Below the pieces are notes generated by a model. It saw only the letters and a list, made by a program, of their open reading frames with translations, was not told the origin of the DNA and searched no databases. From a virus (Duplodnaviria; Heunggongvirae; Uroviricota; Caudoviricetes), in IMG/VR virus record IMGVR_UViG_2802429244_000003: a stretch of DNA of 30,649 nucleotides; one strand, written 5' to 3'. Position 1 is the stretch's first letter. The number at the start of each line of letters is the position of its first letter. This document shows, one piece after another, positions 1,163-28,789 of the stretch. The position numbers and the translations under genes are program-made.

Positions 1163-4100
1163 TCAACTAATACTGATACCGGAAGCAGCTTTTTTGGTCA
1201 CAATCACCGTACAGTCTGTGATGTTACCTGCGCCCTGATTGCCTTTCTGGAAAATCTTAAACTCCAGAGTGACGCTACCACCACCACTCGGCATATCAAT
1301 AACCGCACTGTAACTACCGGGAATGGCTCCTTTAGTTTCTCTGGATGCGATTAATACGCCGTTTTTGCGAACTTCAAAACCATAACCCGTGTATCGCGTA
1401 CCTCCCGGGTTATTACCGCTCCCCGGATCGTCATACGCCACACCGTTAAAAATAATGGGCGGAATAATAATCTGGCGGTCAAAGTTATGATCATCGTAAA
1501 TGGTGACTGTAACCGTCCCGTTTGGTGTTTCCGTGTTACCCCACGTACCAGCCTGTTTCGGGAATGATTTGGAGACAGTTTTAACGAAGTCACCTCTGAC
1601 CTGGTTCGCCTCCAGCATGCCCTTAATCGTACAGTTTTCATTTACCGTGACGTTGTTGAGCGTCCCGGAGTTCGCGTTCACGTTACCGCTGATATCCGCA
1701 TTTTTCGCCGTCAGCCGCCCGTCCGGTGTCAGGGAAAATACCGGAGGATTGCCGCCGCTGGTAATGGTGGGAGCCGTCAGATACTTCAGGAACACTTCGT
1801 TCATGAATATCTGGTTGCCCTGCGCAACAAACATCGGCGTTTCATTCCCGTTTGCCGGGTCAATAAACGCGATACGGTTAGCGGCAACCAGGAACTGGCT
1901 CAGTTTGCCTTCCTCTGTATCCTCCATGCTGAGGCCAAGCCCCGCGACATAATGCTTACCGTCTTCGGTCTGCTCAATTTTGACGCCCCACATGGCATTC
2001 CACTTATCGTTGGCGTCCTTCCACTCTTTCGAAAACTGATCCAGTCTGCTGGCGTTATCCTCTGTCAGGTCGACTTTTTCCAGCAACTCCTTGCCGAGAT
2101 GGGATTCAGTTATCTGGCCTTTGAAAAAATCCAGGTAACCTTCCGCATCATCGCTCGCCCGACCGACAGCCTCCACGAATGCCGATTTGCCAACGGTGTT
2201 CACACTGCGAATGTAAAAATAATAATCATGGTCCGGCTTAATATTGATACTGGCAGCTATCCAGTACAGCGCCGTGCCAAGATAGCGGGCTGTGGTTTCA
2301 ACCTGCCTGATATCCGCAATCCGCTTTTCCGAGAACCAGAACTCAAACTGTACCGTCGGATCATAAACGGCAAGATGGGGCGTGGCGGTTATCTGAAAAT
2401 AGCCAGGTGTCAGCTCAATCCGAGACGGCGCTGCCGGTGCGGCAATCCGGAACGATACCGATGCCGGATCGCCCTGCTGTCCCCACGCATTTACCGCCCG
2501 GACTGTCAGCCTGTAGTTCCCCAGCGCCAGTTGCGTGAAGCGGTATGTGGTTTCCGTCGTCCGGGCCGTGCTGACCAGCCGCTCACTGCCGTCATCCGCT
2601 GCCACGGTCAGGCGAAGCATAAAGCTCACCCCCTTCACCACCTTCGGCGTGTCCCAGCGCGCCAGCACCTGATATTCCCCGCTGTCTGCGGTGACTTCGG
2701 CAGTCAGGTGCTGCACCGCTGGCGGCGTGACACCATTCACCGTGCCGCTCTGGTCGCCGTCAAAGTGCGCCCCGTTATCCACGATAGCCTCTTTTTCCGG
2801 TACATGCTGCACGGCGGTGATGGCATACGTGCCGTCATCGTTCTCACGGATACTCACGCAGCGGAACAGGCGCTGGCGCAGCGTCGGCAGCTTCAGCCCC
2901 CACACGCTGTATCCGGCAACGCCGTCAGGAACACGGCTCACTTTTACCTTCACGCCGTCGGTGACGGACTGGACCTCCACGCTGACCGGATTGCCACTTC
3001 CGTCAACCAGGCTTATCAGCGTGGTACCGGAGGATGGCAGCGTGATTTCACGGTCGAGCGTCAGCGTCCGGGTCTGGCTGTTCACAGCCAGCACGCGCCC
3101 GCCGATGCTGATCCCCGCATAGTCATCATCGCAGATTTCAATAACATCACCCGGCACATGGCGAAGCCCTTCGGCACCCACGCTGAAATCCACGGTCTGC
3201 GTTTCCAGCAGTTCTGTTTTAATCAGCCACAGCCCGGCGCGGTGTGCCTGCCCCCGACTGGTACAGCCAAAGGCATCCATCTTCGTGACGTTACGACCGT
3301 AACGGGCAATGGCCTGCGTGTCCTCCACAAGCTCTGTCGCCGTCTCCCAGCCGTTATCCGGGTCAATCCAGTTCACCTCAACGGCATTATGGCGGTCCTT
3401 CAGGGCGCTGAAGCTGTAGCGGAACGGCGCGCCATCATCCGGCATCACCACATTACTGCGGTTATAGGTCCACACCTTATCCGACGGTCGGTCCTGCACG
3501 AACGTCAGCGTCTGCCCGTTCCATACCGGCATACAGCGCATCGCCGAGCAGAAATCGCTGAGCACATCCCACGCCTTACGCTGAGTGGTCAGCCAGGCAT
3601 TACAGGTGATGCGCGGCTCCGTGCCGCCAAAGCCGTCCGGCACCGACTGGTCGCAATTCTGGCCGATGACATACAGCGCCCATTTATCCACATCTGCCGC
3701 ACCAAGACGTTTCCCCATGCCGTAGCGCGGGTGGGTCAGCATATCCCACAGACACCAGGCCATATTGTTGCTGTATGCTGGCTTAAACGTTCCGTCCCAG
3801 ATACCGCTGTATTGCCGCGTCTGCGGGTTATAGTTCGACGGCACCTGCAGAATGCGCCCGCGAAGATGATAATTACGGCTCACCTGCTGACTGCCGAACT
3901 GTTCCGAGTCCACCTGCACGCCGACCAGTGCCGTGTTCGGGTAGCACTGTTTCACATCGATGATTTCGGTGTATGACGACCAGAGCGTTTTGTTCTGCAG
4001 CTGGTCTGTGGTGCTGTCCGGTGTCATCCTGCGCATCCGGATATTAAACGGGCGCGGCGGCAGGTTATCCACCACCACCGAGGCCAGATACTGCGACGTG

Positions 4101-20183: not shown

Positions 20184-20648
20184 TTATCTGAGGCATTGCT
20201 CGCTAATATATAGCTGTGCCCCCTCCAGTTGTTTTTGCATCAATATCAGCCGCTCTCTGAGGGTGAAATAATCCCGTTCAGCGGTGTCTGCCAGTCGGGG
20301 GGAGGCTGCATTATCCACGCCGGAGGCGGTGGTGGCTTCACGCACTGACTGACAGACTGCTTTGATGTGCAACCGACGACGACCAGCGGCAACATCATCA
20401 CGCAGAGCATCATTTTCAGCTTTCGCATCAGCTAACTCCTTCGTGTATTTAGCATCGAGTGCATCAGCAGCACGCTGGCGCTGCTGCATGTCAGTAATGG
20501 TGGCGGTCACCTGCTTCAGCTCACTGACTTTTTTATCACGCTGTTCTTTGTAGGCGATGGCGTTATCACGGTAATGATTAACAGCCCATGACAGGCAGAC
20601 GATGATGCAGATAGCCAGAGCATAAATAATCGCGGCAACTCTGCTCAC
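20184..20648 (-). CDS. Rz: Spanin inner membrane subunit Rz (i-spanin)
   Basis: From the GTG start reads [39 protein letters not shown]..., nearly identical to lambda Rz as recalled; GTG overlaps the endolysin stop as GTGA. Confidence 0.9.
20246..20428 (-). CDS. Rz1: Spanin outer membrane lipoprotein Rz1 (o-spanin), embedded in the +1 frame of Rz
   Basis: [60 protein letters not shown]: lipobox VVGC, proline-rich, nearly identical to lambda Rz1 as recalled. Confidence 0.9.
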
Positions 20649-21178
20649 TGCTCTATCCCCCAACAGGCTAATACGCTTTCCTGGTCACGACGAATAACCT
20701 GACCGTAACAATTATTTGAACGAATGCGGCAATCACGTCCACCGTCCTTTATCCACCAGCGAATCGCCTCGCATGCGCCTTTACGATCACCGGCATTCAG
20801 CCGCTTATAAAACGTCGACGGAAAACACTTACCGGGGCCAATGTTATAGGGACAGAATGACGCGATACCGGCTTTCTGTGGCTCGGTCAGTGGAACTTTT
20901 ATATTGCGCTCCACCCATGCCAGCGCCTTATCCCGCTCAATGGCGTTAACCTGGGCGCATTTTTCCTTCGACAGTTTCATTCCCGGAATAACAGGTTTAC
21001 CGTCCACCATCGTTGCTCCCCGACAGATGGTCCATATGCCGGAGCCATCGCGGTATGCAGTGGTGTGATTCCCCTCTTTTTCATCCAGAAACTGATCGAG
21101 AATGTCAGGGGCAGGAGCACTGGCGGCAATCAGAGCCAGAACAGCAGCCGACAGGCTGTATCTGATTTTTACGTTCAT
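20645..21178 (-). CDS. R: Endolysin, T4-lysozyme-type muramidase with a hydrophobic Gly/Ala-rich N-terminus (likely SAR endolysin)
   Basis: 177 aa; catalytic triad pattern E...D...T in [16 protein letters not shown]; N-terminal [24 protein letters not shown]; follows a pinholin-type holin. Confidence 0.85.
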
Positions 21179-21291
21179 GGATATTTATCAGGATTTATCG
21201 GCTTCAAATCCCCGGATATGTTAAATCTTACCTCGCCAGTGATGGGCACTGGCGGGAGGAGGATGTCAATCTGATAAACACAGAGGTGACT

Positions 21292-21552
21292 ATGGATTAC
21301 ACAAATCTACCAAAACAAACTTTTGCTGATTTAATCGCACTCAGGCAAGCAGTCGTAGCTCTAATCAACTTGTTGCCGGAGAAGGAAAAGGAATTAGTTA
21401 AAGCGCTTCTTAACAGAACTGCCGCCGATTTTTCATCATATCCACTGACAGATGACCTTGCGGACCTTCCTGAATTAATTGCAGCGTCCGCCATTAAGCT
21501 TACTGAAGAGATTTACCCTCCTCAAAAATCTTCACAAAATTCCTGCGAGTAA
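21292..21552 (+). CDS. Hypothetical acidic 86-aa protein, oriented opposite to the late operon inside the lysis cassette
   Basis: GAGG Shine-Dalgarno 5 nt upstream of the ATG; followed by a strong intrinsic terminator; no recognisable motif. Confidence 0.45.
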   Translation: MDYTNLPKQTFADLIALRQAVVALINLLPEKEKELVKALLNRTAADFSSYPLTDDLADLPELIAASAIKLTEEIYPPQKSSQNSCE

Positions 21553-22051
21553 CTTCAATGCAATAATCGTAAAACGCCGCAAACTGCTCATCGCGGCGTT
21601 TTTTTTCATCTTCAGAAGGAATAAGCACCGACAATTTTTTATTCAGATCAGCGACGCTGCCCTCCAGTTTTTCAATGAGCGATTCAATATCATCTTTTTC
21701 TGACCGCAATGCCGTCGGTGGCGTCTTCAGAGAACCAGTAATTCTTCCCGGTAGCTTTCCTTTGTAGGTTATCCACACATTCTGCGCCTCTAAAATTATG
21801 GGGCGCTTTTCCGGCGACTGCTCATCCCCTTCACATAACCCGGCAGCAACATCCAGGAATACCTGTCTGATTCTCATTCTGGCTGCTGCCTCATAAAACT
21901 CCAGTGCAGCACCTTCAACACGATCCATAGTGATATCCAGCTCAAAAATCTCACCGTCAAAGCGTTCTTTGTCCTGTAAGGCTAAAGTTACCGTAACTTT
22001 ATGCTCAAAATTACGGACTCCTTTCACAACCAGTTCATAGTCTTGAGTCAT
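21500..22051 (-). CDS. Hypothetical soluble acidic 183-aa protein inserted between holin and endolysin
   Basis: AGGAGA Shine-Dalgarno; start 5 nt after the holin stop; no transmembrane segment or catalytic motif seen; position is analogous to the ydfR-type gene that sits between holin and lysozyme in some E. coli prophages, but the family is not recognised. Confidence 0.55.
   Translation of the reverse strand: MTQDYELVVKGVRNFEHKVTVTLALQDKERFDGEIFELDITMDRVEGAALEFYEAAARMRIRQVFLDVAAGLCEGDEQSPEKRPIILEAQNVWITYKGKLPGRITGSLKTPPTALRSEKDDIESLIEKLEGSVADLNKKLSVLIPSEDEKKRRDEQFAAFYDYCIEVTRRNFVKIFEEGKSLQ
21573..21606 (+). terminator. Strong rho-independent terminator on the plus strand (GC stem followed by T8)
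   Basis: AACGCCGC, loop, GCGGCGTT, then TTTTTTTT; 20 nt after the 86-aa ORF stop; lies inside the 3' coding sequence of the minus-strand 183-aa ORF. Confidence 0.6.
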
Positions 22052-22055
22052 TGGA

Positions 22056-22271
22056 TTACTCTCCTCTCGCAGCCTTACGCCTGTCTTCTTTAATCTTGAA
22101 ATAAAGATTTGTCAGATACGTCAGCAGGCCAAAAACCAGGCTACCCAGCACACCGATTGCAGCCCACTGTGACGGAGTTACTTTATCGAGTAACTGCAAT
22201 GCCCAGAAACCAGCATTACCCGCCGATGTGCCATAGGCAACACCTGTTGTTAACTTATCCATTGATTTCAT
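22056..22271 (-). CDS. S: Holin, phage-21 S-type pinholin with dual-start motif
   Basis: [71 protein letters not shown] matches phage 21 S pinholin as recalled; Met1 and Met4 give the antiholin/holin dual start. Confidence 0.85.
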
Positions 22272-22490
22272 ATCCTCACCCCGATGTACACGGATGGTGC
22301 AATATGTTTGAAAATATCGGAGTCTACGGGGTAGTTTTTACAGCACACGTTGTTCTCAACGGCGCTAAAAAAACATACACATTAAAAATGTGGTTAATTA
22401 TTTTGAAAGAAAATCATATATTAATTAATAATACGAGAAATGTTTTCATATTTAGTGTACTGTATACGGCCATTTATACAGGAAAAGCCT

Positions 22491-22661
22491 ATGTCAGAAC
22501 GTAAAGACTCAAAATCACGCCGTAATTATCTCGTTAAATGTTCCTGCCCAAACTGCACCCAAGAGTCAGAACACAGTTTTTCAAGAGTACAAAAAGGTGC
22601 CCTTTTGATCTGCCCTCATTGCAACAAAGTATTCCAGACAAATCTTAAAGCTGTAGCCTGA
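22491..22661 (+). CDS. Candidate small zinc-ribbon protein (56 aa; CxxC, 17 residues, CxxC)
   Basis: MSERKDSKSRRNYLVKCSCPNCTQESEHSFSRVQKGALLICPHCNKVFQTNLKAVA; AGGA 7 nt upstream; hairpin terminator about 60 nt downstream; possible TTGAAA / TAATAA promoter elements upstream. Confidence 0.4.
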   Translation: MSERKDSKSRRNYLVKCSCPNCTQESEHSFSRVQKGALLICPHCNKVFQTNLKAVA

Positions 22662-22745: not shown

Positions 22746-23024
22746 TATTGTGGTGCTTTTTGTGAGAGTCATCCACTTACGCACTTTGTTTTGCTATGCC
22801 AGCAGTTAGCTTCTGCTGTAAAACTATTCATGCAGCAAACCTGCACTTCACCACAATGGTTAGCATACTTTTCCTGATTAAGTTATTACCAAATATGCTG
22901 GCCATTGTTTCATGTATTGGACCGCCTTACTCTTTATTAAAGAGATCCAATATTCACCACTCTGTCTGTATCTCCACTCAGGCATCAGCCTTCTTCGTTA
23001 TCGTATACAGACAAACTATGAATT

Positions 23025-23240
23025 TTAATCATTAATGATGACATTTGCTGCTGCAGGACCTTTAGCACCACTCTCTACAGAGAAGGTAACCTTTTGACCT
23101 TCAAATAAGGTTCGATAATTATCATTCTGAATCGCAGAAAAATGCACAAACACATCTTTACTACCATCAACAGGAGAAATAAAGCCAAAACCTTTATCAG
23201 CGTTAAACCATTTTACTAAACCAGTCATTTTATTTGACAT
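23025..23240 (-). CDS. cspB: Cold shock protein, CspA family (CspB-like)
   Basis: [67 protein letters not shown]: cold-shock domain with the RNP1 motif KGFGFI; long 5' UTR region upstream. Confidence 0.9.
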
Positions 23241-23539
23241 TCTACATTCCTTAACTTGAGCCTTTCGGCATAAATGGTTTGTATAACAGAAACGACTTCG
23301 TACTTAATTGGAGAGACTCAAAGAAGGAATAAGTGAATAACACCTGAAATGAGAACTGCTTTAGTAAACTACTTCGTATATCGTCTGTTCTTCAAACCGA
23401 CGCAATCATTAACGCATAGTTGAACATATGAAGCAATGTTTATTTTAGACATCCAGCCATCTTCAACCCCATCAAAAAACTATAGCTTTCTTCAGGAACG
23501 TGTGTATAGTGCGCCAAGTTATCAGTATTAAGGAATTTT

Positions 23540-23752
23540 TTGTCCCGTAAAATGACAGGAATTGTCAAAACCTTTGACTACAAAAGCGGCAAAGGTCTTA
23601 TCATACCATCCGATGGCCGTATCGATGTCCAGCTGCACGTTTCTGCTCTCAATCTCCGCGATGCAGAAGAAATTACCACAGGATTACGCGTGGAATTTTG
23701 CCGAATCAATGGTCTACGTGGACCTTCAGCTGCCAATGTTTATCTTTCATGA
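23540..23752 (+). CDS. cspF: Divergent cold-shock-domain protein (CspF/CspH-like, lacking the canonical RNP motifs)
   Basis: (M)[69 protein letters not shown]; the track start is a TTG with AGGA 5 nt upstream; an in-frame ATG lies 12 nt downstream. Confidence 0.85.
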
Positions 23753-25837: not shown

Positions 25838-26590
25838 TTATCTTGTCACTTTTCTCAGTTGTGCTTCTGCATACGCTTCTTCCTGCCAGCACTTTGTTAC
25901 CAGTTTATCAATGACGTCCGCATACCCCTTGTACCACTGATAATCTGTCAGGTCCGGTACCAACTTCTGGACATGACGTCGTGCCAGTGTGGTCGGTAAA
26001 CGACTAAACCTGTTTCCATTACAACGCCCACAAATCTTATAAACCGGTACGCCATGAAGCCGGGTTCTTTTTTCATCCAGGACAATACCTTTACCCTTAC
26101 ACCCTCTGCACGCTGTGCTGACTTCGCCCTTACCATGGCAATGCTGACATAGTTCCTTCCCCCATTCTTCCTTGATAACAGATTCCCCACTTCTGTAGTG
26201 TTTCACCACTTCGCGCAATACATTATGAAATCCCGTACCTGCACAATGTTCACAGCGAGCCTTACTTGCCGCAGACCTGGAATAATCAGCAAAGGCAAAA
26301 TTCACAAGGTAAGGGATGATCTGTAACCGGGTTTCTTCACTCAATTTGTTCAATATCGGGTTATCCAGTGCCATCGCGTAATTGAGCAGACCTTCAATCG
26401 CAAACTGAGGGTCCTGAACACCAACTTTTGCCAGGAATAAGGCAAACCCAAGCGGTGCTTTCGACTGCACCATCCCCTGCGCAGCCATCACATCCGTAAT
26501 TGCTAAACCACCTGAGTCTGTCGCCGGTGCGTCATCGCTCAATTTTGGAGGTTTTGGGGAGTAATATTTTGGTAAGGCTTCAAGGTTCAT
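25838..26590 (-). CDS. Q: Late gene antiterminator Q (zinc-binding)
   Basis: 250 aa from MNLEALPKYY...; contains CEHCAGTG...CQHCHGKG...CRGCKGKG...CGRCNG Cys motifs; GGAGA Shine-Dalgarno; located upstream of the lysis cassette as quuQ is in the Qin prophage. Confidence 0.8.
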   Translation of the reverse strand: MNLEALPKYYSPKPPKLSDDAPATDSGGLAITDVMAAQGMVQSKAPLGFALFLAKVGVQDPQFAIEGLLNYAMALDNPILNKLSEETRLQIIPYLVNFAFADYSRSAASKARCEHCAGTGFHNVLREVVKHYRSGESVIKEEWGKELCQHCHGKGEVSTACRGCKGKGIVLDEKRTRLHGVPVYKICGRCNGNRFSRLPTTLARRHVQKLVPDLTDYQWYKGYADVIDKLVTKCWQEEAYAEAQLRKVTR

Positions 26591-26603
26591 GCTCGTTCTC
26601 CAC

Positions 26604-27653
26604 TTACGCCAATACGCCAATTGCCAGCGCACGATCGATAAAACGAAATATCAGCTCCAGCTGGGAGCCATACTTCTTTTCAAATGCCACGGTATCCGCA
26701 TGCAGCTCGTCGTGATGCTTTCTGCACAAAGGCAACACAAAGAGGTCATGCGCTTTTGTACCCATTCCGCCCTGACCATGACCAATCAGGTGATGGGGAT
26801 CGTCAGCTGGCTTACCACAACACGCACACGGCTGTGTCTTCACCCAGCGCGTGTATTTCTCATTTACCCAGCGGCGACGTTTAGGTCGCTTCATGAAAGA
26901 TTCCGGAGACTCCGGATCAACGGCAATGCTGACCTCCGTCTTTTCCTGTGGTGGGTTCTGTTGCTGGTGGGCGTGAGGCGGTAGCACAATATTTTTTGTG
27001 CGCTGCTTCAGTATACTGGTGGCTGTCTGCTCTCCCGGTATGATGTCACTCTCGCGGTAAAGCGAGCGGATTTTTTCAGCACGTAACCCCAGAGAACGAC
27101 GTAATACTGCCTCCGGTAGCGCGTCCGCTACCTGATTGCAGACCGCCCACCAGGATAATTCAGCCAGCGATAATTCCCGCTCCTGCGTGCCATTCATTGC
27201 ATGGCGTATGACGTCAATCATCCATGCTGACAGGTTTTGATGAGCAAGTTGCCCGAGTGATTCGGATGTCTGGTCACGCAGCTGGTTGTCGCAGTGCCAG
27301 CACAACACCATCGCGCCGGTACCGTAACGATGTATGACGATTTCACTGTGATGATAGTCACCATGAGGCCACTGGCAGGATTTGACATGACGCAACAGCC
27401 AGTCAGACAGTGCACCAGCGCCGCCAGCAGCACGAATCACCCGCTCATCGCTGAAAAATGGCAGTAATGATTTATCCTCCGCCAGCGGCTGGCGAACTGC
27501 AGGGACGACTCCGGATGGCAGGCCGCACATGCTTTTTGGTTCCGGCTCCACCAGCACGCGAGGATTATGAAATACCCGCATGGATTCACGGCCCGGTTTT
27601 AGCACCACCAGCCCAAGTTCCGGTACCGGAACAGGTCGAAGTAATACCCGCAC
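26604..27653 (-). CDS. DUF968-domain protein (ydfU-like; Cys/His-rich C-terminus)
   Basis: 349 aa; C-terminal CACCGKPADDPHHLIGHGQGGMGTKAHDLFVLPLCRKHHDELH; immediately upstream of Q, as ydfU is in Qin. Family assignment is from memory. Confidence 0.7.
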   Translation of the reverse strand: MRVLLRPVPVPELGLVVLKPGRESMRVFHNPRVLVEPEPKSMCGLPSGVVPAVRQPLAEDKSLLPFFSDERVIRAAGGAGALSDWLLRHVKSCQWPHGDYHHSEIVIHRYGTGAMVLCWHCDNQLRDQTSESLGQLAHQNLSAWMIDVIRHAMNGTQERELSLAELSWWAVCNQVADALPEAVLRRSLGLRAEKIRSLYRESDIIPGEQTATSILKQRTKNIVLPPHAHQQQNPPQEKTEVSIAVDPESPESFMKRPKRRRWVNEKYTRWVKTQPCACCGKPADDPHHLIGHGQGGMGTKAHDLFVLPLCRKHHDELHADTVAFEKKYGSQLELIFRFIDRALAIGVLA

Positions 27654-28480: not shown

Positions 28481-28636
28481 TTACTCCTCAGGTTCGTAAG
28501 CTGTGAAGACAGCGACCTCCGTCTGGCCGGTTCGGATTCGTACCTCGCAGAGGTCTTTCCTCGTTACCAGTGCCGTCACTATGACGGTTAAACAGATGAC
28601 GATCAGGGCGATTAACATCGCCTTTTGCTGCTTCAT
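28481..28636 (-). CDS. hok: Hok-family type I toxin (small membrane-depolarising peptide)
   Basis: MKQQKAMLIALIVICLTVIVTALVTRKDLCEVRIRTGQTEVAVFTAYEPEE, matching the Hok/Gef family (HokD-like) as recalled. Confidence 0.9.
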   Translation of the reverse strand: MKQQKAMLIALIVICLTVIVTALVTRKDLCEVRIRTGQTEVAVFTAYEPEE

Positions 28637-28693
28637 AGCCTGCTTCTCCTTGACCTTTCGGTCCGTAAGAGGCAATCTATATGTGACGAGCAT
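28481..28693 (-). CDS. mok: mok, the in-frame upstream reading frame whose translation is coupled to hok
   Basis: 70-codon ORF sharing the hok stop, with a 19-codon N-terminal extension (MLVTYRLPLTDRKVKEKQA) and GAGG upstream; the leader resembles the plasmid R1 hok leader (...CCUCUUAC...CAAGGAGAAG...AUGAA) as recalled. Confidence 0.6.
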   Translation of the reverse strand: MLVTYRLPLTDRKVKEKQAMKQQKAMLIALIVICLTVIVTALVTRKDLCEVRIRTGQTEVAVFTAYEPEE

Positions 28694-28760
28694 ATAGGGG
28701 CCTCACTTCGATTTATAGTCGGGTGGGGCTTTTATCTATCTGCCGTTGGTGTTCATGCCC
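28650..28760 (+). ncRNA. sok: Predicted location of a Sok-like antisense RNA; exact ends not determined
   Basis: Inference from hok/sok architecture: the antisense RNA should be transcribed opposite the mok translation-initiation region. A TTGACC -35-like hexamer sits at 28650..28655, but no convincing -10 element or terminator was found. Confidence 0.25.
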
Positions 28761-28789
28761 GAGGCAGATAGCCTCAAGCACCCGCAGCA

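What the first reader, a model, noticed from the sequence alone, without database searches (positions are those of the whole stretch)
21179..22055. Two-gene insertion splitting the lysis cassette between pinholin and endolysin
In phage 21 and lambda the holin and endolysin genes are adjacent. Here about 880 bp separates them and carries (a) a 183-aa acidic soluble protein co-transcribed with the late operon and tightly coupled to the holin, and (b) an 86-aa acidic protein on the opposite strand with its own Shine-Dalgarno and a strong T8 terminator. That terminator lies inside the 3' coding region of the 183-aa gene, and the two ORFs overlap by about 50 nt at their 3' ends. Neither protein has a motif I recognise. 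An independently transcribed, convergent gene inside a late operon is the classic moron architecture, so this could be a lysogeny-expressed cargo gene, an anti-defense or superinfection-exclusion function, or a lysis-timing regulator. This is my best candidate for an undescribed module in the window.
Basis: partly seen in the sequence, partly recalled or inferred. Interest (0 to 1): 0.7.

Follow-up and report, generated by a model that had tools for sequence, protein, structure and literature searches.

The report
Cargo-gene slot inside prophage lysis cassette
Between the holin and endolysin genes of this E. coli prophage lie a common but poorly studied late protein (YdfR family) and, on the opposite strand, a small conserved gene in a swappable "cargo slot" shared by many related prophages. 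Both genes are already in the databases as uncharacterised proteins, so this is a useful lead, not a new kind of system.

Summary
In detail: coordinates, ORFs, 53-nt 3' overlap, acidic pI and the T8 hairpin are all there. The interpretation needs correcting.

- **The 183-aa protein is not an insert.** Its first 112 residues are DUF1327/YdfR, a regular resident between S21-type holin and endolysin genes, including in K-12 Qin. This part is 84% identical to the part of K-12 YdfR reported to bind RNase E.
- **The variable unit is about 510 bp (21206-21715).** It holds the 86-aa gene (PHROG 2572), its hairpin terminator and the last 71 codons of the 183-aa ORF.
- **That tail is a separate small gene ("A") fused in frame.** In Salmonella prophages a free 73-aa A gene and a 93-aa relative of the 86-aa gene ("B") form the same convergent, 3'-overlapping pair. 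There the pair sits after Rz, in an unrelated lysis cassette.
- **The ydfR-R gap is a polymorphic slot.** At least five unrelated small acidic ORFs, or none, follow one shared leader of about 75 nt with promoter-like hexamers and a hairpin.

Best reading: a moron-type, independently transcribed cargo gene embedded antisense in the late operon. Its function is unknown and no known family, fold or defence model matches. About 5% of complete E. coli genomes carry it. Interest is moderate.

The parts
22056..22271 (-). S21-type class II holin (pinholin-like, MKSM dual-start motif), first gene of the lysis cassette
   Evidence: Pfam PF04971 4.4e-34, PHROG holin families. Annotated essD/essQ in near-identical genomes.
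21716..22051 (-). DUF1327 (YdfR) domain, codons 1-112 of the 183-aa ORF. Translationally coupled to the holin (4-nt gap, Shine-Dalgarno in the holin 3' end).
   Evidence: PF07041 5.2e-41, 139 bits against a cut-off of 25. Residues 1-74 are 84% identical to K-12 YdfR residues 1-74. K-12 YdfR residues 1-72 were reported to bind the RNase E N-terminal domain (PMC13232886). Homology to cargo-free loci resumes at 21716.
21500..21715 (-). C-terminal tail of the 183-aa ORF (codons 113-183), called 'gene A' here and fused in frame. Predicted helical hairpin. Contains the terminator hairpin (KRRDE..AAF codons) and overlaps the 86-aa gene by 53 nt.
   Evidence: Aligns in register with a free-standing 73-aa Salmonella protein: 43% identity over the last 35 residues, pairwise E = 9e-6. 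Matches PHROGs 36381 and 15975. AF2 helices at 122-143 and 147-182 (low confidence). Absent from the 114-116-aa YdfR forms.
21292..21552 (+). 86-aa acidic helical protein ('gene B', PHROG 2572), convergent to the late operon
   Evidence: PHROG 2572 1.2e-53 over its full length. Distant homologues at 57% and 41% identity. Salmonella alleles give dN/dS 0.19-0.58 outside the overlap. AF2 gives a small helical model, pLDDT 75. No match in Pfam, NCBIfam, PADLOC, PDB or BFVD.
21177..21256 (+). Conserved leader of the cargo slot. It contains an invariant 19-nt block ATATTTATCAGGATTTATC (21181-21199, two TTTATC repeats 10 bp apart), a -35-like TTTATC (21194-21199), a 17-nt spacer, a -10-like TATGTT (21217-21222) and a hairpin (21232-21256). 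It abuts the endolysin start codon.
   Evidence: The 19-nt block is exact in E. coli and Salmonella gene-B loci whose proteins are about 50% identical. The leader is shared by five different cargo ORF types and by cargo-free forms. Hairpin -29 kcal/mol for 21225-21295, z = -4.2. A hairpin at the same place in other lineages shows some both-sided changes. The element is below the threshold of the consensus promoter scan.
21571..21606 (+). Intrinsic-terminator-like hairpin (10-bp stem, 12-nt loop) plus T8, immediately after the 86-aa stop codon and inside the 183-aa ORF. Also folds on the minus strand.
   Evidence: -14.6 kcal/mol, z = -3.4 on the + strand and -18.8 kcal/mol on the - strand. The stem is conserved in all gene-B lineages, with one compensatory G-C to A-U change that alters both encoded residues.
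21206..21715 (.). The segment that is actually variable relative to cargo-free relatives (the cassette): downstream part of the leader (from the spacer on, with the -10-like hexamer and the hairpin), gene B, terminator and gene-A tail
   Evidence: blastn against the short-form locus L004: homology covers 20600-21205 and 21716-22297, and 510 nt here correspond to 51 nt there. Found at 80% coverage or more in 281 of 5426 complete E. coli genomes.
20645..21178 (-). Endolysin (phage lysozyme with a hydrophobic N-terminal segment, SAR-like), no Shine-Dalgarno upstream
   Evidence: PF00959 2.6e-24, PHROG 7 endolysin. Upstream sequence read. Annotated rrrQ in relatives.
20184..20663 (-). Rz spanin, with the embedded Rz1 lipoprotein ORF at 20246-20428
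   Evidence: PF03245 2.2e-49. Rz1 ORF with a lipobox-like [10 protein letters not shown].

Best explanation
The interval holds one resident late gene and one mobile cassette. It is not a two-gene insertion.

**Resident gene.** ydfR (DUF1327) is a standard late-operon gene between the S21-type holin and the endolysin. It is translationally coupled to the holin. By homology to K-12 YdfR it probably binds the catalytic half of RNase E.

**Cassette (about 21206-21715).** It carries gene B, the 86-aa acidic helical protein, on the opposite strand. It also carries a small late-strand gene A, which here is fused in frame to ydfR and supplies residues 113-183.

**Proposed expression.** B is an independent transcription unit. 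A conserved leader abutting the endolysin start codon carries promoter-like hexamers and a 5' hairpin. B has its own Shine-Dalgarno, and a hairpin terminator lies inside gene A. The arrangement is a moron embedded antisense in the Q-dependent late operon, that is, a "noncontiguous operon".
- In the lysogen only B would be made.
- After induction, terminator-resistant late transcription would read through the hairpin and express YdfR-A and R. It would also produce RNA antisense to B, damping B.

**The slot.** The ydfR-R gap is polymorphic. Homologous recombination in the flanking conserved DNA swaps at least five unrelated small acidic cargo genes, and deletions leave it empty.

**Likely role.** B is most likely a small protein-binding inhibitor (exclusion, anti-defence or host modulation), and A may be its late-expressed partner.

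**Shown:** gene identities, cassette limits, conservation of the A/B pair, slot polymorphism, leader and hairpin conservation.
**Inferred:** promoter activity, timing of expression, antisense effect, A-B partnership, biochemical role.
For: **Identity of the 183-aa protein**
- DUF1327 match at 5e-41.
- Relatives are annotated "YdfR family protein" between essD/essQ and rrrQ.
- The same layout occurs in phages with deposited complete genomes, with E. coli C or K-12 MG1655 as the recorded host for several (2H10, PhiR63_1, PhiR5_1, PhiR12_x).
- K-12 Qin has a compact S-ydfR-R arrangement.

**Cassette limits**
- Window 21206-21715 corresponds to 51 nt in a cargo-free locus.
- PhiR5_1 and Stx2 phage 86 carry other versions of the cassette.

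**B is a real gene**
- A full HMMER search finds 93-aa and 89-aa homologues at 57% and 41% identity.
- dN/dS is 0.19-0.58 for B and 0.24-0.34 for A outside the overlap, apart from one near-identical pair with almost no synonymous change.

**The A/B pair is conserved**
- Three lineages keep a convergent 53-59-nt 3' overlap.
- In Salmonella a free 73-aa A gene, coupled to Rz, plus B lie after Rz in cassettes with other holin and endolysin families.
- In 80 of 80 IMG/VR loci B is linked to the tail and to R.

**Terminator**
- The hairpin is conserved in all lineages, with one compensatory change.

**Leader**
- A 19-nt block plus TAT..T is invariant between E. coli and Salmonella modules.
- The leader is shared by the 86-, 90-, 91-, 98-, 104- and 233-aa cargo types.
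- The small cargo types (86-104 aa) are acidic, pI 4.5-5.8.

**Prevalence in 5426 complete E. coli genomes**
- 281 genomes (B cassette), 1112 (90-aa cargo), 94 (104-aa cargo) and 29-58 (91-aa cargo).

**Precedent**
- Phage phi80 taiEcA and atiEcA form a noncontiguous operon in the Q-dependent late operon. The immune gene is expressed in the lysogen and is reduced when Q is expressed (PMC11364771).

**Context**
- Q lies at 25838-26632 (-), upstream on the same strand as the lysis genes.
Against: - There are no expression data, and the consensus promoter scan finds nothing upstream of B. The proposed hexamers match only 3 of 6 and 4 of 6.
- In E. coli the conserved leader also forms the upstream region of the endolysin and persists in cargo-free forms. 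Some of its conservation may therefore serve R or recombination, not a promoter.
- B is very uniform within E. coli: 12 differences in 258 nt against PhiR5_1, omega 0.6. Within-species evidence for selection on the protein is therefore weak.
- In the IMG/VR sample 7 of 80 copies have ATG changed to ACG and one has a premature stop.
- In Salmonella the A and B alleles reassort, and one locus keeps A with B truncated. A-like domains also exist without B, as in the 296-aa YdfR form. The A-B partnership may therefore be only physical linkage through the overlap.
- The T-tract after the hairpin is poor outside the E. coli lineage.
- Neither structure model gives a functional clue: YdfR pLDDT 58, B pLDDT 75, and no Foldseek match.
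Confidence: 0.55

Rival explanations
1. Lysis regulator. B, with or without the YdfR-A protein, tunes lysis timing, for example as a cytoplasmic antiholin-like binder or as a control on endolysin supply. That would explain why it sits inside lysis cassettes.
For: Both known contexts are lysis cassettes: between S and R in E. coli and directly after Rz in Salmonella. In both, gene A is translationally coupled to a lysis gene. B is small, cytoplasmic and acidic, while the holin C-terminus is basic. Small cytoplasmic lysis regulators exist, for example T4 RIII (own knowledge, not tested).
Against: The Salmonella cassettes use unrelated holins (Phage_holin_8 and Phage_holin_3_7) and a GH19 endolysin. 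A specific holin or endolysin target is therefore unlikely. B is on the opposite strand and so is not co-expressed with the late lysis genes by design. The same slot holds at least five unrelated cargo ORFs or none, with deposited complete phage genomes for both a cargo-free and a B-bearing state. Lysis-cassette borders are general moron sites, as with lambda bor (own knowledge).
Confidence: 0.15
2. Mainly RNA-level function. The plus-strand transcript acts as a cis-antisense RNA against the late transcript between ydfR and R, through transcriptional interference or RNase III processing. This would set the S:R ratio or silence leaky late expression in the lysogen, and the encoded peptide would be secondary.
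For: The predicted transcript (about 21230-21606) is fully complementary to the ydfR 3' end and the R 5' leader. The 3' overlap and hairpin are conserved over three lineages, including a compensatory change. The leader and hairpin are kept even in cargo-free forms. Noncontiguous operons are reported to work through such overlaps (PMC11364771).
Against: All cargo types are intact ORFs with their own Shine-Dalgarno sequences, and the five small ones belong to full-length PHROG families. B keeps its reading frame down to 41% identity and shows dN/dS below 1. An RNA-only role would not need either.
Confidence: 0.12
3. Hitchhiking or decaying DNA. B is a selfish or nearly neutral passenger with no current function. 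Its conservation would reflect recent spread and constraints from the overlapping late gene and the endolysin leader.
For: Within E. coli B is at least 98% identical in 80 of 80 loci, with omega about 0.6 against the nearest diverged allele. About 10% of sampled copies carry a start-codon or nonsense change. Many prophages have lost the cargo by deletion, apparently at a GTCTTCAG microhomology. PGAP even labels the intact 183-aa ORF a pseudogene in CFT073.
Against: The ORF, its partner, the overlap and the upstream block persist between E. coli and Salmonella at about 50% protein identity. dN/dS is 0.19-0.58 in the non-overlapping part. Only 53-59 nt of B overlap gene A, so the overlap cannot explain conservation of the rest.
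Confidence: 0.1
4. Toxin-antitoxin-like pair of the type I kind, in which convergent genes share 3' ends and a bidirectional terminator.
For: Convergent genes with 53-59 nt of 3' overlap and a hairpin that folds on both strands. This resembles par/Fst and bsrG/SR4 (own knowledge).
Against: Neither product is a small hydrophobic peptide: GRAVY is -0.11 to -0.68 and there is no membrane segment. Both are protein-coding under purifying selection, so neither is an RNA antitoxin. There are no PADLOC or NCBIfam toxin hits. A survives with B truncated.
Confidence: 0.03

Closest known systems
E. coli K-12 YdfR (b1555, Qin prophage; Pfam DUF1327)
   Same: The first 74 residues are 84% identical. The gene sits in the same place, directly after an S21-type holin and before the lysozyme. 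K-12 YdfR residues 1-72 were reported to bind the RNase E N-terminal domain and to co-purify RNA (PMC13232886).
   Different: K-12 YdfR is 103 aa and overlaps the rrrQ start, with no gap, no tail and no convergent gene. The window protein carries a 71-residue C-terminal module of separate origin. RNase E binding was not tested for this protein.
Phage lambda bor and classical morons (Juhala/Hendrix definition; own knowledge)
   Same: A small gene on the strand opposite to the late operon, at the edge of or inside the lysis region. It has its own terminator and deviant composition, and it is present in some relatives and absent in others.
   Different: bor encodes an outer-membrane lipoprotein, whereas B is a soluble acidic helical protein with no signal peptide. 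Expression from the prophage is shown for bor and not for B. B overlaps a late gene by 53 nt and shares one leader with several alternative cargo genes.
phi80 taiEcA/atiEcA, a noncontiguous operon in the Q-dependent late operon (PMC11364771)
   Same: A gene in the opposite orientation interrupts the late operon near the lysis genes and is flanked by a small late-strand gene. In phi80 the opposite-strand gene is expressed in the lysogen, and the late-strand neighbour neutralises it during lytic growth.
   Different: There is no sequence similarity. Tai is 204 aa and B is 86 aa. In phi80 the two genes abut at their 5' ends after rha, whereas here they overlap at their 3' ends between ydfR and R. 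No defence or counter-defence activity has been tested for B or A.
Anti-CRISPR-type accessory loci, where variable small acidic cargo genes follow a conserved promoter at a fixed genome position (own knowledge)
   Same: One conserved upstream element is followed by alternative, unrelated, small acidic ORFs at the same position in related phages.
   Different: There is no aca-like regulator gene and no match to any known anti-defence family. The orientation is antisense to a late operon. Promoter activity is not shown.

Membership tests
YdfR / DUF1327 (PF07041) | Sequence match to the Pfam model above the gathering score | tested here: met
   139.2 bits against a cut-off of 25, residues 1-112. 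84% identity to K-12 YdfR over residues 1-74.
YdfR / DUF1327 (PF07041) | Gene position directly downstream of an S21-type holin and upstream of the endolysin in lambdoid prophages | tested here: met
   Window order is S-ydfR-(B)-R-Rz. The same order occurs in K-12 Qin, CFT073 and phages 2H10 and vB_EcoM-606R7.
YdfR / DUF1327 (PF07041) | Binding to the RNase E N-terminal half (reported for K-12 YdfR) | not testable with these tools
   Known only by homology to the residue 1-72 region used in PMC13232886.
Moron (independent transcription unit added to a phage operon) | Present in some and absent in other closely related phages at the same site | tested here: met
   The cassette 21206-21715 is missing from the short-form locus L004 and replaced by other cargo in Stx2 phage 86 and other loci. 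It is found in 281 of 5426 genomes.
Moron (independent transcription unit added to a phage operon) | Own terminator | tested here: met
   10-bp stem plus T8 directly after the stop codon, z = -3.4. The stem is conserved with a compensatory change. Termination activity itself was not measured.
Moron (independent transcription unit added to a phage operon) | Own promoter | tested here: inconclusive
   No hit in the consensus scan. A weak TTTATC-N17-TATGTT element lies in a block that is invariant between E. coli and Salmonella modules and shared by all cargo types.
Moron (independent transcription unit added to a phage operon) | Expression from the repressed prophage | not testable with these tools
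   No transcript data were available, and literature searches found none.
Noncontiguous operon | An opposite-strand gene flanked on both sides by co-oriented genes of one operon | tested here: met
   Q, S and ydfR lie upstream and R, Rz and terS downstream, all on the minus strand. B is on the plus strand.
Noncontiguous operon | The operon transcript reads across the embedded gene and the two RNAs regulate each other | not testable with these tools
   Inferred from Q antitermination (established knowledge) and from the phi80 precedent.
Type I toxin-antitoxin with 3'-overlapping convergent genes | Small hydrophobic toxin peptide and a non-coding antisense RNA antitoxin | tested here: not met
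   Both products are hydrophilic and both are under purifying selection as proteins. No Rfam match at gathering score and only chance-level matches in 21100-22100. No toxin family match.
Known anti-phage defence proteins (PADLOC-DB 2.0) and Tai/Ati | Sequence similarity to a catalogued defence or counter-defence protein | tested here: not met
   No PADLOC hit up to E = 1. No similarity to phi80 gp52 or gp51.
DUF1823 (the label given to the PhiR5_1 orthologue of the 86-aa protein) | Pfam match above the gathering score | tested here: not met
   The PhiR5_1 protein scores 15.3 bits against a cut-off of 25, E = 0.023. The window protein has no hit.

The most novel reading that the evidence does not exclude
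The ydfR-R gap of S21-type lysis cassettes may be a dedicated expression slot with its own promoter. It would carry interchangeable small acidic effector proteins; five PHROG families of unknown function plus one 233-aa ORF were seen here.

The gene B / gene A cassette would then be a new immunity and self-immunity pair wired as a noncontiguous operon. B would be made in the lysogen to block a competitor or a host process. The late-strand A module, here fused to an RNase E-binding YdfR domain, would neutralise B or replace it once Q-dependent transcription starts.
Probability: 0.2. Interest if true: 0.7.

Novelty: new member of a known kind. Interest (0 to 1): 0.4.

Why it matters
If B and its alternative cargo genes are expressed from the shared leader, this slot is a compact, easily screened source of uncharacterised small phage proteins. 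Together the cargo genes occur in roughly a quarter of complete E. coli genomes. The slot sits in a place where defence hotspot surveys, which focus on larger multi-gene systems, would not usually look.

It would also add an enterobacterial example of antisense-embedded ("noncontiguous operon") control inside a Q-dependent late operon. The A/B pair gives a concrete candidate for a lysogen-expressed factor with a lytic-cycle partner. The fusion of A to an RNase E-binding domain offers a handle on what YdfR proteins do during lysis.

If none of this holds, the result is still useful for annotation. The 183-aa ORF is an intact mosaic YdfR that RefSeq sometimes marks as a pseudogene, and the "insertion" is 510 bp, not 880 bp.

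Tried and rejected
- **Family searches for the 86-aa protein.** Pfam, NCBIfam and PADLOC gave nothing above threshold. The ABATE and DUF1823 hits are sub-threshold noise.
- **Solved structures by sequence.** Nothing was found for B. For the YdfR profile only a weak PARP1 BRCT-linker match appeared (E = 0.01), judged spurious.
- **AlphaFold models and fold searches.** No significant match for YdfR against PDB (model pLDDT 58, so uninformative). No match for B against PDB or BFVD. The afdb50 library was unavailable.
- **Full HMMER search for B.** One hit is a 975-aa eukaryote-like TPR/CHAT protein matched in eight repeats (P0139). I rejected it as a compositional helical-repeat match. P0142 looks like a frameshifted translation.
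- **Remote homology among cargo types.** hhalign was not significant. The best was the 90-aa type, E = 0.029 and probability 1.7%.
- **Rfam on the interval.** Only chance-level matches appeared (GcvB at 18 bits, rli61).
- **Type I toxin-antitoxin reading.** Rejected on hydropathy and coding evidence.
- **Similarity to phi80 Tai and Ati.** None.
- **Other copies of the TTTATC-N4-TTTATC repeat in the window,** looked for as possible operators. None beyond chance.
- **Literature.** Nothing was found for DUF1823, the PhiR phages or WP_001306174. The only informative YdfR paper is PMC13232886.
- **Regulator site resemblance.** The repeat read on the other strand (ATAAA-N5-ATAAA) resembles the CpxR consensus GTAAA-N5-GTAAA as I recall it. 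This is a recollection, not a test.
Full report
**1. The observation**

The lysis cassette lies on the minus strand.
- Holin: 22056-22271 (PF04971, 4e-34).
- 183-aa ORF: 21500-22051.
- Lysozyme: 20645-21178 (PF00959).
- Rz: 20184-20663, with Rz1 embedded.

The 86-aa ORF (21292-21552) is on the plus strand. The S-R gap is 877 bp and the two ORFs overlap by 53 nt at their 3' ends. The 183-aa ORF starts 4 nt after the holin stop, behind a GGAGAG Shine-Dalgarno. The pI values are 5.0 and 4.6. The hairpin plus T8 (21571-21606) folds at -14.6 kcal/mol (z = -3.4). It lies just after the 86-aa stop codon and inside the 183-aa ORF. The description is therefore accurate. The consensus promoter scan, however, reports nothing upstream of the 86-aa gene.

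**2. What the two proteins are**

*The 183-aa protein.* It is not unknown. Residues 1-112 match DUF1327 (YdfR) at 5e-41, and the whole protein matches PHROG 2091. The identical sequence is in the databases as "YdfR family protein". The first 74 residues are 84% identical to K-12 YdfR.

The only informative paper found is Gopel et al. 2026 (PMC13232886). It reports that K-12 YdfR binds the N-terminal catalytic half of RNase E in two-hybrid and co-purification assays. Residues 1-72 suffice, RNA co-purifies, and overexpression changes few transcripts.

ydfR between an S21-type holin and the endolysin is ordinary. It occurs in K-12 Qin, CFT073, S88 and APEC O1. It also occurs in phages with deposited complete genomes, several with E. 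coli C or K-12 MG1655 as recorded host.

*The 86-aa protein.* It matches PHROG 2572 over its full length (1e-53). It matches nothing in Pfam, NCBIfam, PADLOC or the PDB. The exact sequence is on at least 1000 contigs, always as "hypothetical protein".

**3. The real unit of variation**

Against a cargo-free relative (vB_EcoM-606R7, 116-aa YdfR), homology covers 20600-21205 and 21716-22297. The window's 510 nt in between correspond to 51 nt there. The variable cassette is therefore the 86-aa gene, its terminator and codons 113-183 of the 183-aa ORF.

YdfR proteins come in length classes of 103, 114-116, 176, 183, 211, 268 and 296 aa. They share the DUF1327 domain and differ in their tails. The 296-aa form has no convergent gene. 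Stx2 phage 86 has a 268-aa form plus an unrelated 104-aa convergent ORF.

The cassette is present at 80% coverage or more in 281 of 5426 complete E. coli genomes.

**4. A conserved two-gene module**

A full HMMER search with the 86-aa protein found distant homologues of 93 aa (57% identity) and 89 aa (41%). Their contigs show the same design: a late-strand ORF converging on the gene with a 59-nt 3' overlap.

In Salmonella prophages the order is Phage_holin_8, Phage_holin_3_7, a GH19 endolysin, Rz (DUF2514), a free 73-aa gene whose start overlaps the Rz stop, the convergent 93-aa gene, and then the small terminase. The 73-aa protein aligns in register with the window's tail: 43% identity over the last 35 residues, pairwise E = 9e-6. 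I therefore call the tail "gene A" and the 86-aa gene "gene B". In the window, A is fused in frame to ydfR.

Free-standing A-like genes without DUF1327 also follow the holin in some E. coli loci.

Among Salmonella alleles, dN/dS outside the overlap is 0.24-0.34 for A and 0.19-0.58 for B, apart from one near-identical pair with almost no synonymous change. All reading frames are open, so both are coding.

Within E. coli, B is nearly invariant: 12 differences in 258 nt against PhiR5_1, omega 0.6. In a sample of 80 IMG/VR loci, 7 copies have ATG changed to ACG and one has a premature stop.

The hairpin after B is conserved in all lineages. In one lineage a G-C pair became A-U through two substitutions that change both encoded residues, which points to selection on the RNA or DNA structure. 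The T-tract is strong only in the E. coli lineage.

**5. A polymorphic slot with one leader**

A 19-nt block, ATATTTATCAGGNTTTATC (21181-21199), is exact in every gene-B locus, including the Salmonella ones, whose B proteins are only about 50% identical to the window's and which have no endolysin next to the block.

An exact scan of IMG/VR for this block gave more than 119 stretches, and I analysed 80 of them. The ORF that follows the block differs between loci:

| Cargo ORF | PHROG | Loci (of 80) |
|---|---|---|
| 90 aa | 2411 | 25 |
| Gene B | 2572 | 9 |
| 87-91 aa | 18136 | 4 |
| 104 aa | 1853 | 3 |
| 98 aa | 25324 | 1 |
| 233 aa | none | 1 |
| None | - | about 29 |

- All cargo types share the same leader of about 75 nt. 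It contains the block, TTTATC-N17-TATGTT and a hairpin (21232-21256). After it the sequences diverge into cargo-specific Shine-Dalgarno sequences and start codons.
- Cargo-free forms keep the leader up to the -10-like hexamer. They then join the ydfR 3' end at what looks like a GTCTTCAG microhomology, so they appear to be deletion derivatives.
- The small cargo proteins (86-104 aa) are acidic (pI 4.5-5.8) and hydrophilic.
- None has an annotated function, and no homology is detectable between types.
- In complete E. coli genomes the 90-aa, 104-aa and 91-aa types occur in 1112, 94 and 29-58 genomes.

**6. How it most likely works**

*Shown:* the gene identities, the cassette limits, conservation of the A/B pair, and conservation of the leader and hairpin.

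*Established knowledge:* Q-modified RNA polymerase ignores intrinsic terminators. Q (25838-26632) lies upstream on the same strand as the lysis genes.

*Inferred:*
- B is transcribed from the leader independently of the late operon and stops at the hairpin inside A.
- After induction, late transcription reads through. It makes YdfR-A and R, and it produces RNA antisense to B.

This is a moron in a noncontiguous-operon arrangement. A documented precedent is phi80 taiEcA and atiEcA in the Q-dependent late operon. There the opposite-strand immune gene is expressed in the lysogen, falls when Q is expressed, and is neutralised by a small late-strand neighbour (PMC11364771). B and A show no sequence similarity to Tai and Ati, so the parallel is architectural only.

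Given its size, charge and helical model (pLDDT 75), B is most likely a protein-binding inhibitor. Its target is unknown.

**7. Rival explanations**

- **Lysis-timing role.** It fits the location. It is weakened by the unrelated holin and endolysin families in the Salmonella context, and by the fact that the slot can be empty or hold other genes in phages with deposited complete genomes.
- **Purely antisense-RNA role.** It fits the conserved overlap and hairpin. It does not explain reading frames maintained at 41-57% identity.
- **Neutral hitchhiking.** It fits the uniformity and occasional decay within E. coli. It does not fit the conservation between genera.
- **Type I toxin-antitoxin pair.** It fails on hydropathy and coding evidence.
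- **Caveat on the A-B partnership.** A and B alleles reassort, A survives with B truncated, and A-like domains occur without B. The partnership may be only physical linkage.

**8. Novelty and score**

Both genes are already annotated and widespread, and the architecture belongs to a known kind (moron, noncontiguous operon). In the papers searched I found no description of three things:
- the recognition that the tail is a separate gene fused to ydfR;
- the conserved A/B module in two genera;
- the multi-cargo slot with a common leader.

I rate it a new member of a known kind, with interest 0.4. It would rise to about 0.7 if B and A prove to be a lysogen-expressed factor and its lytic-cycle partner (probability about 0.2).

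**9. Limits**

- There are no expression data.
- The YdfR structure model is poor (pLDDT 58).
- The AlphaFold database fold library was unavailable.
- No multimer prediction could be run.

Noticed in passing
window 21500-22051 (-); L085 4401-4973; L001 3617-3952: RefSeq/PGAP annotates the orthologue of the 183-aa ORF in CFT073 and RM9088 as a pseudogene ("YdfR family protein, incomplete, missing C-terminus", covering only the first 112 codons). The full 183-codon ORF is intact in CFT073. This looks like an annotation artefact caused by the mosaic tail.
   Followed up: partly
window 22960-23401 (-): An Rfam cspA thermoregulator (156 bits) lies upstream of a CspB-like cold-shock gene (23025-23240). 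A CspF-like gene (23540-23752, +) and a YnfU zinc-ribbon ORF (22491-22661, +) also lie between Q and the holin, as in K-12 Qin. The late operon therefore already contains several opposite-strand genes.
   Followed up: partly
window 28634-28783 (-): Rfam sok antitoxin RNA (104 bits), implying a hok/sok-type type I toxin-antitoxin locus in the early region of the prophage.
   Followed up: no
window 21257-21276 (+): A three-codon mini-ORF (ATG TCA ATC TGA) sits behind a strong GGAGGAGG Shine-Dalgarno, in the predicted 5' leader of the 86-aa gene just after the leader hairpin. The ATGTCAATCTGA sequence is kept in PhiR5_1 behind a weaker Shine-Dalgarno and is absent from the Salmonella leaders.
   Followed up: no
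L100 (motif at 3169-3187, -) and 24 similar IMG/VR loci: The commonest occupant of the slot is a different 90-aa acidic ORF (PHROG 2411). It converges on a 114-aa YdfR with a 35-nt overlap. It is present in 1112 of 5426 complete E. coli genomes, in two identity classes (99% or more, and 80-90%).
   Followed up: partly
L106, L114, L127 (IMG/VR): In some prophages the gene after the S21-type holin lacks DUF1327 altogether. It begins with the gene-A-like coiled-coil and KRRDEQFAAFYDDC motif, followed by a further C-terminal region of roughly 130 aa that it shares with the 268- and 296-aa YdfR forms (185-213 aa in total).
   Followed up: no
L095 4164-4415 (-): In one Salmonella prophage the promoter region and first codons of gene B are deleted while the 73-aa gene A is intact.
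   Followed up: no
window 21181-21199: Read on the late strand, the invariant block contains ATAAA-N5-ATAAA. This resembles the CpxR box GTAAA-N5-GTAAA as I recall it. It is an untested lead for envelope-stress control of the slot.
   Followed up: no
L094 500-1225 (+): One of the Salmonella prophages carrying the A/B module has a pertussis-toxin-S1/scabin-like ADP-ribosyltransferase gene between its antiterminator and the holin genes.
   Followed up: no
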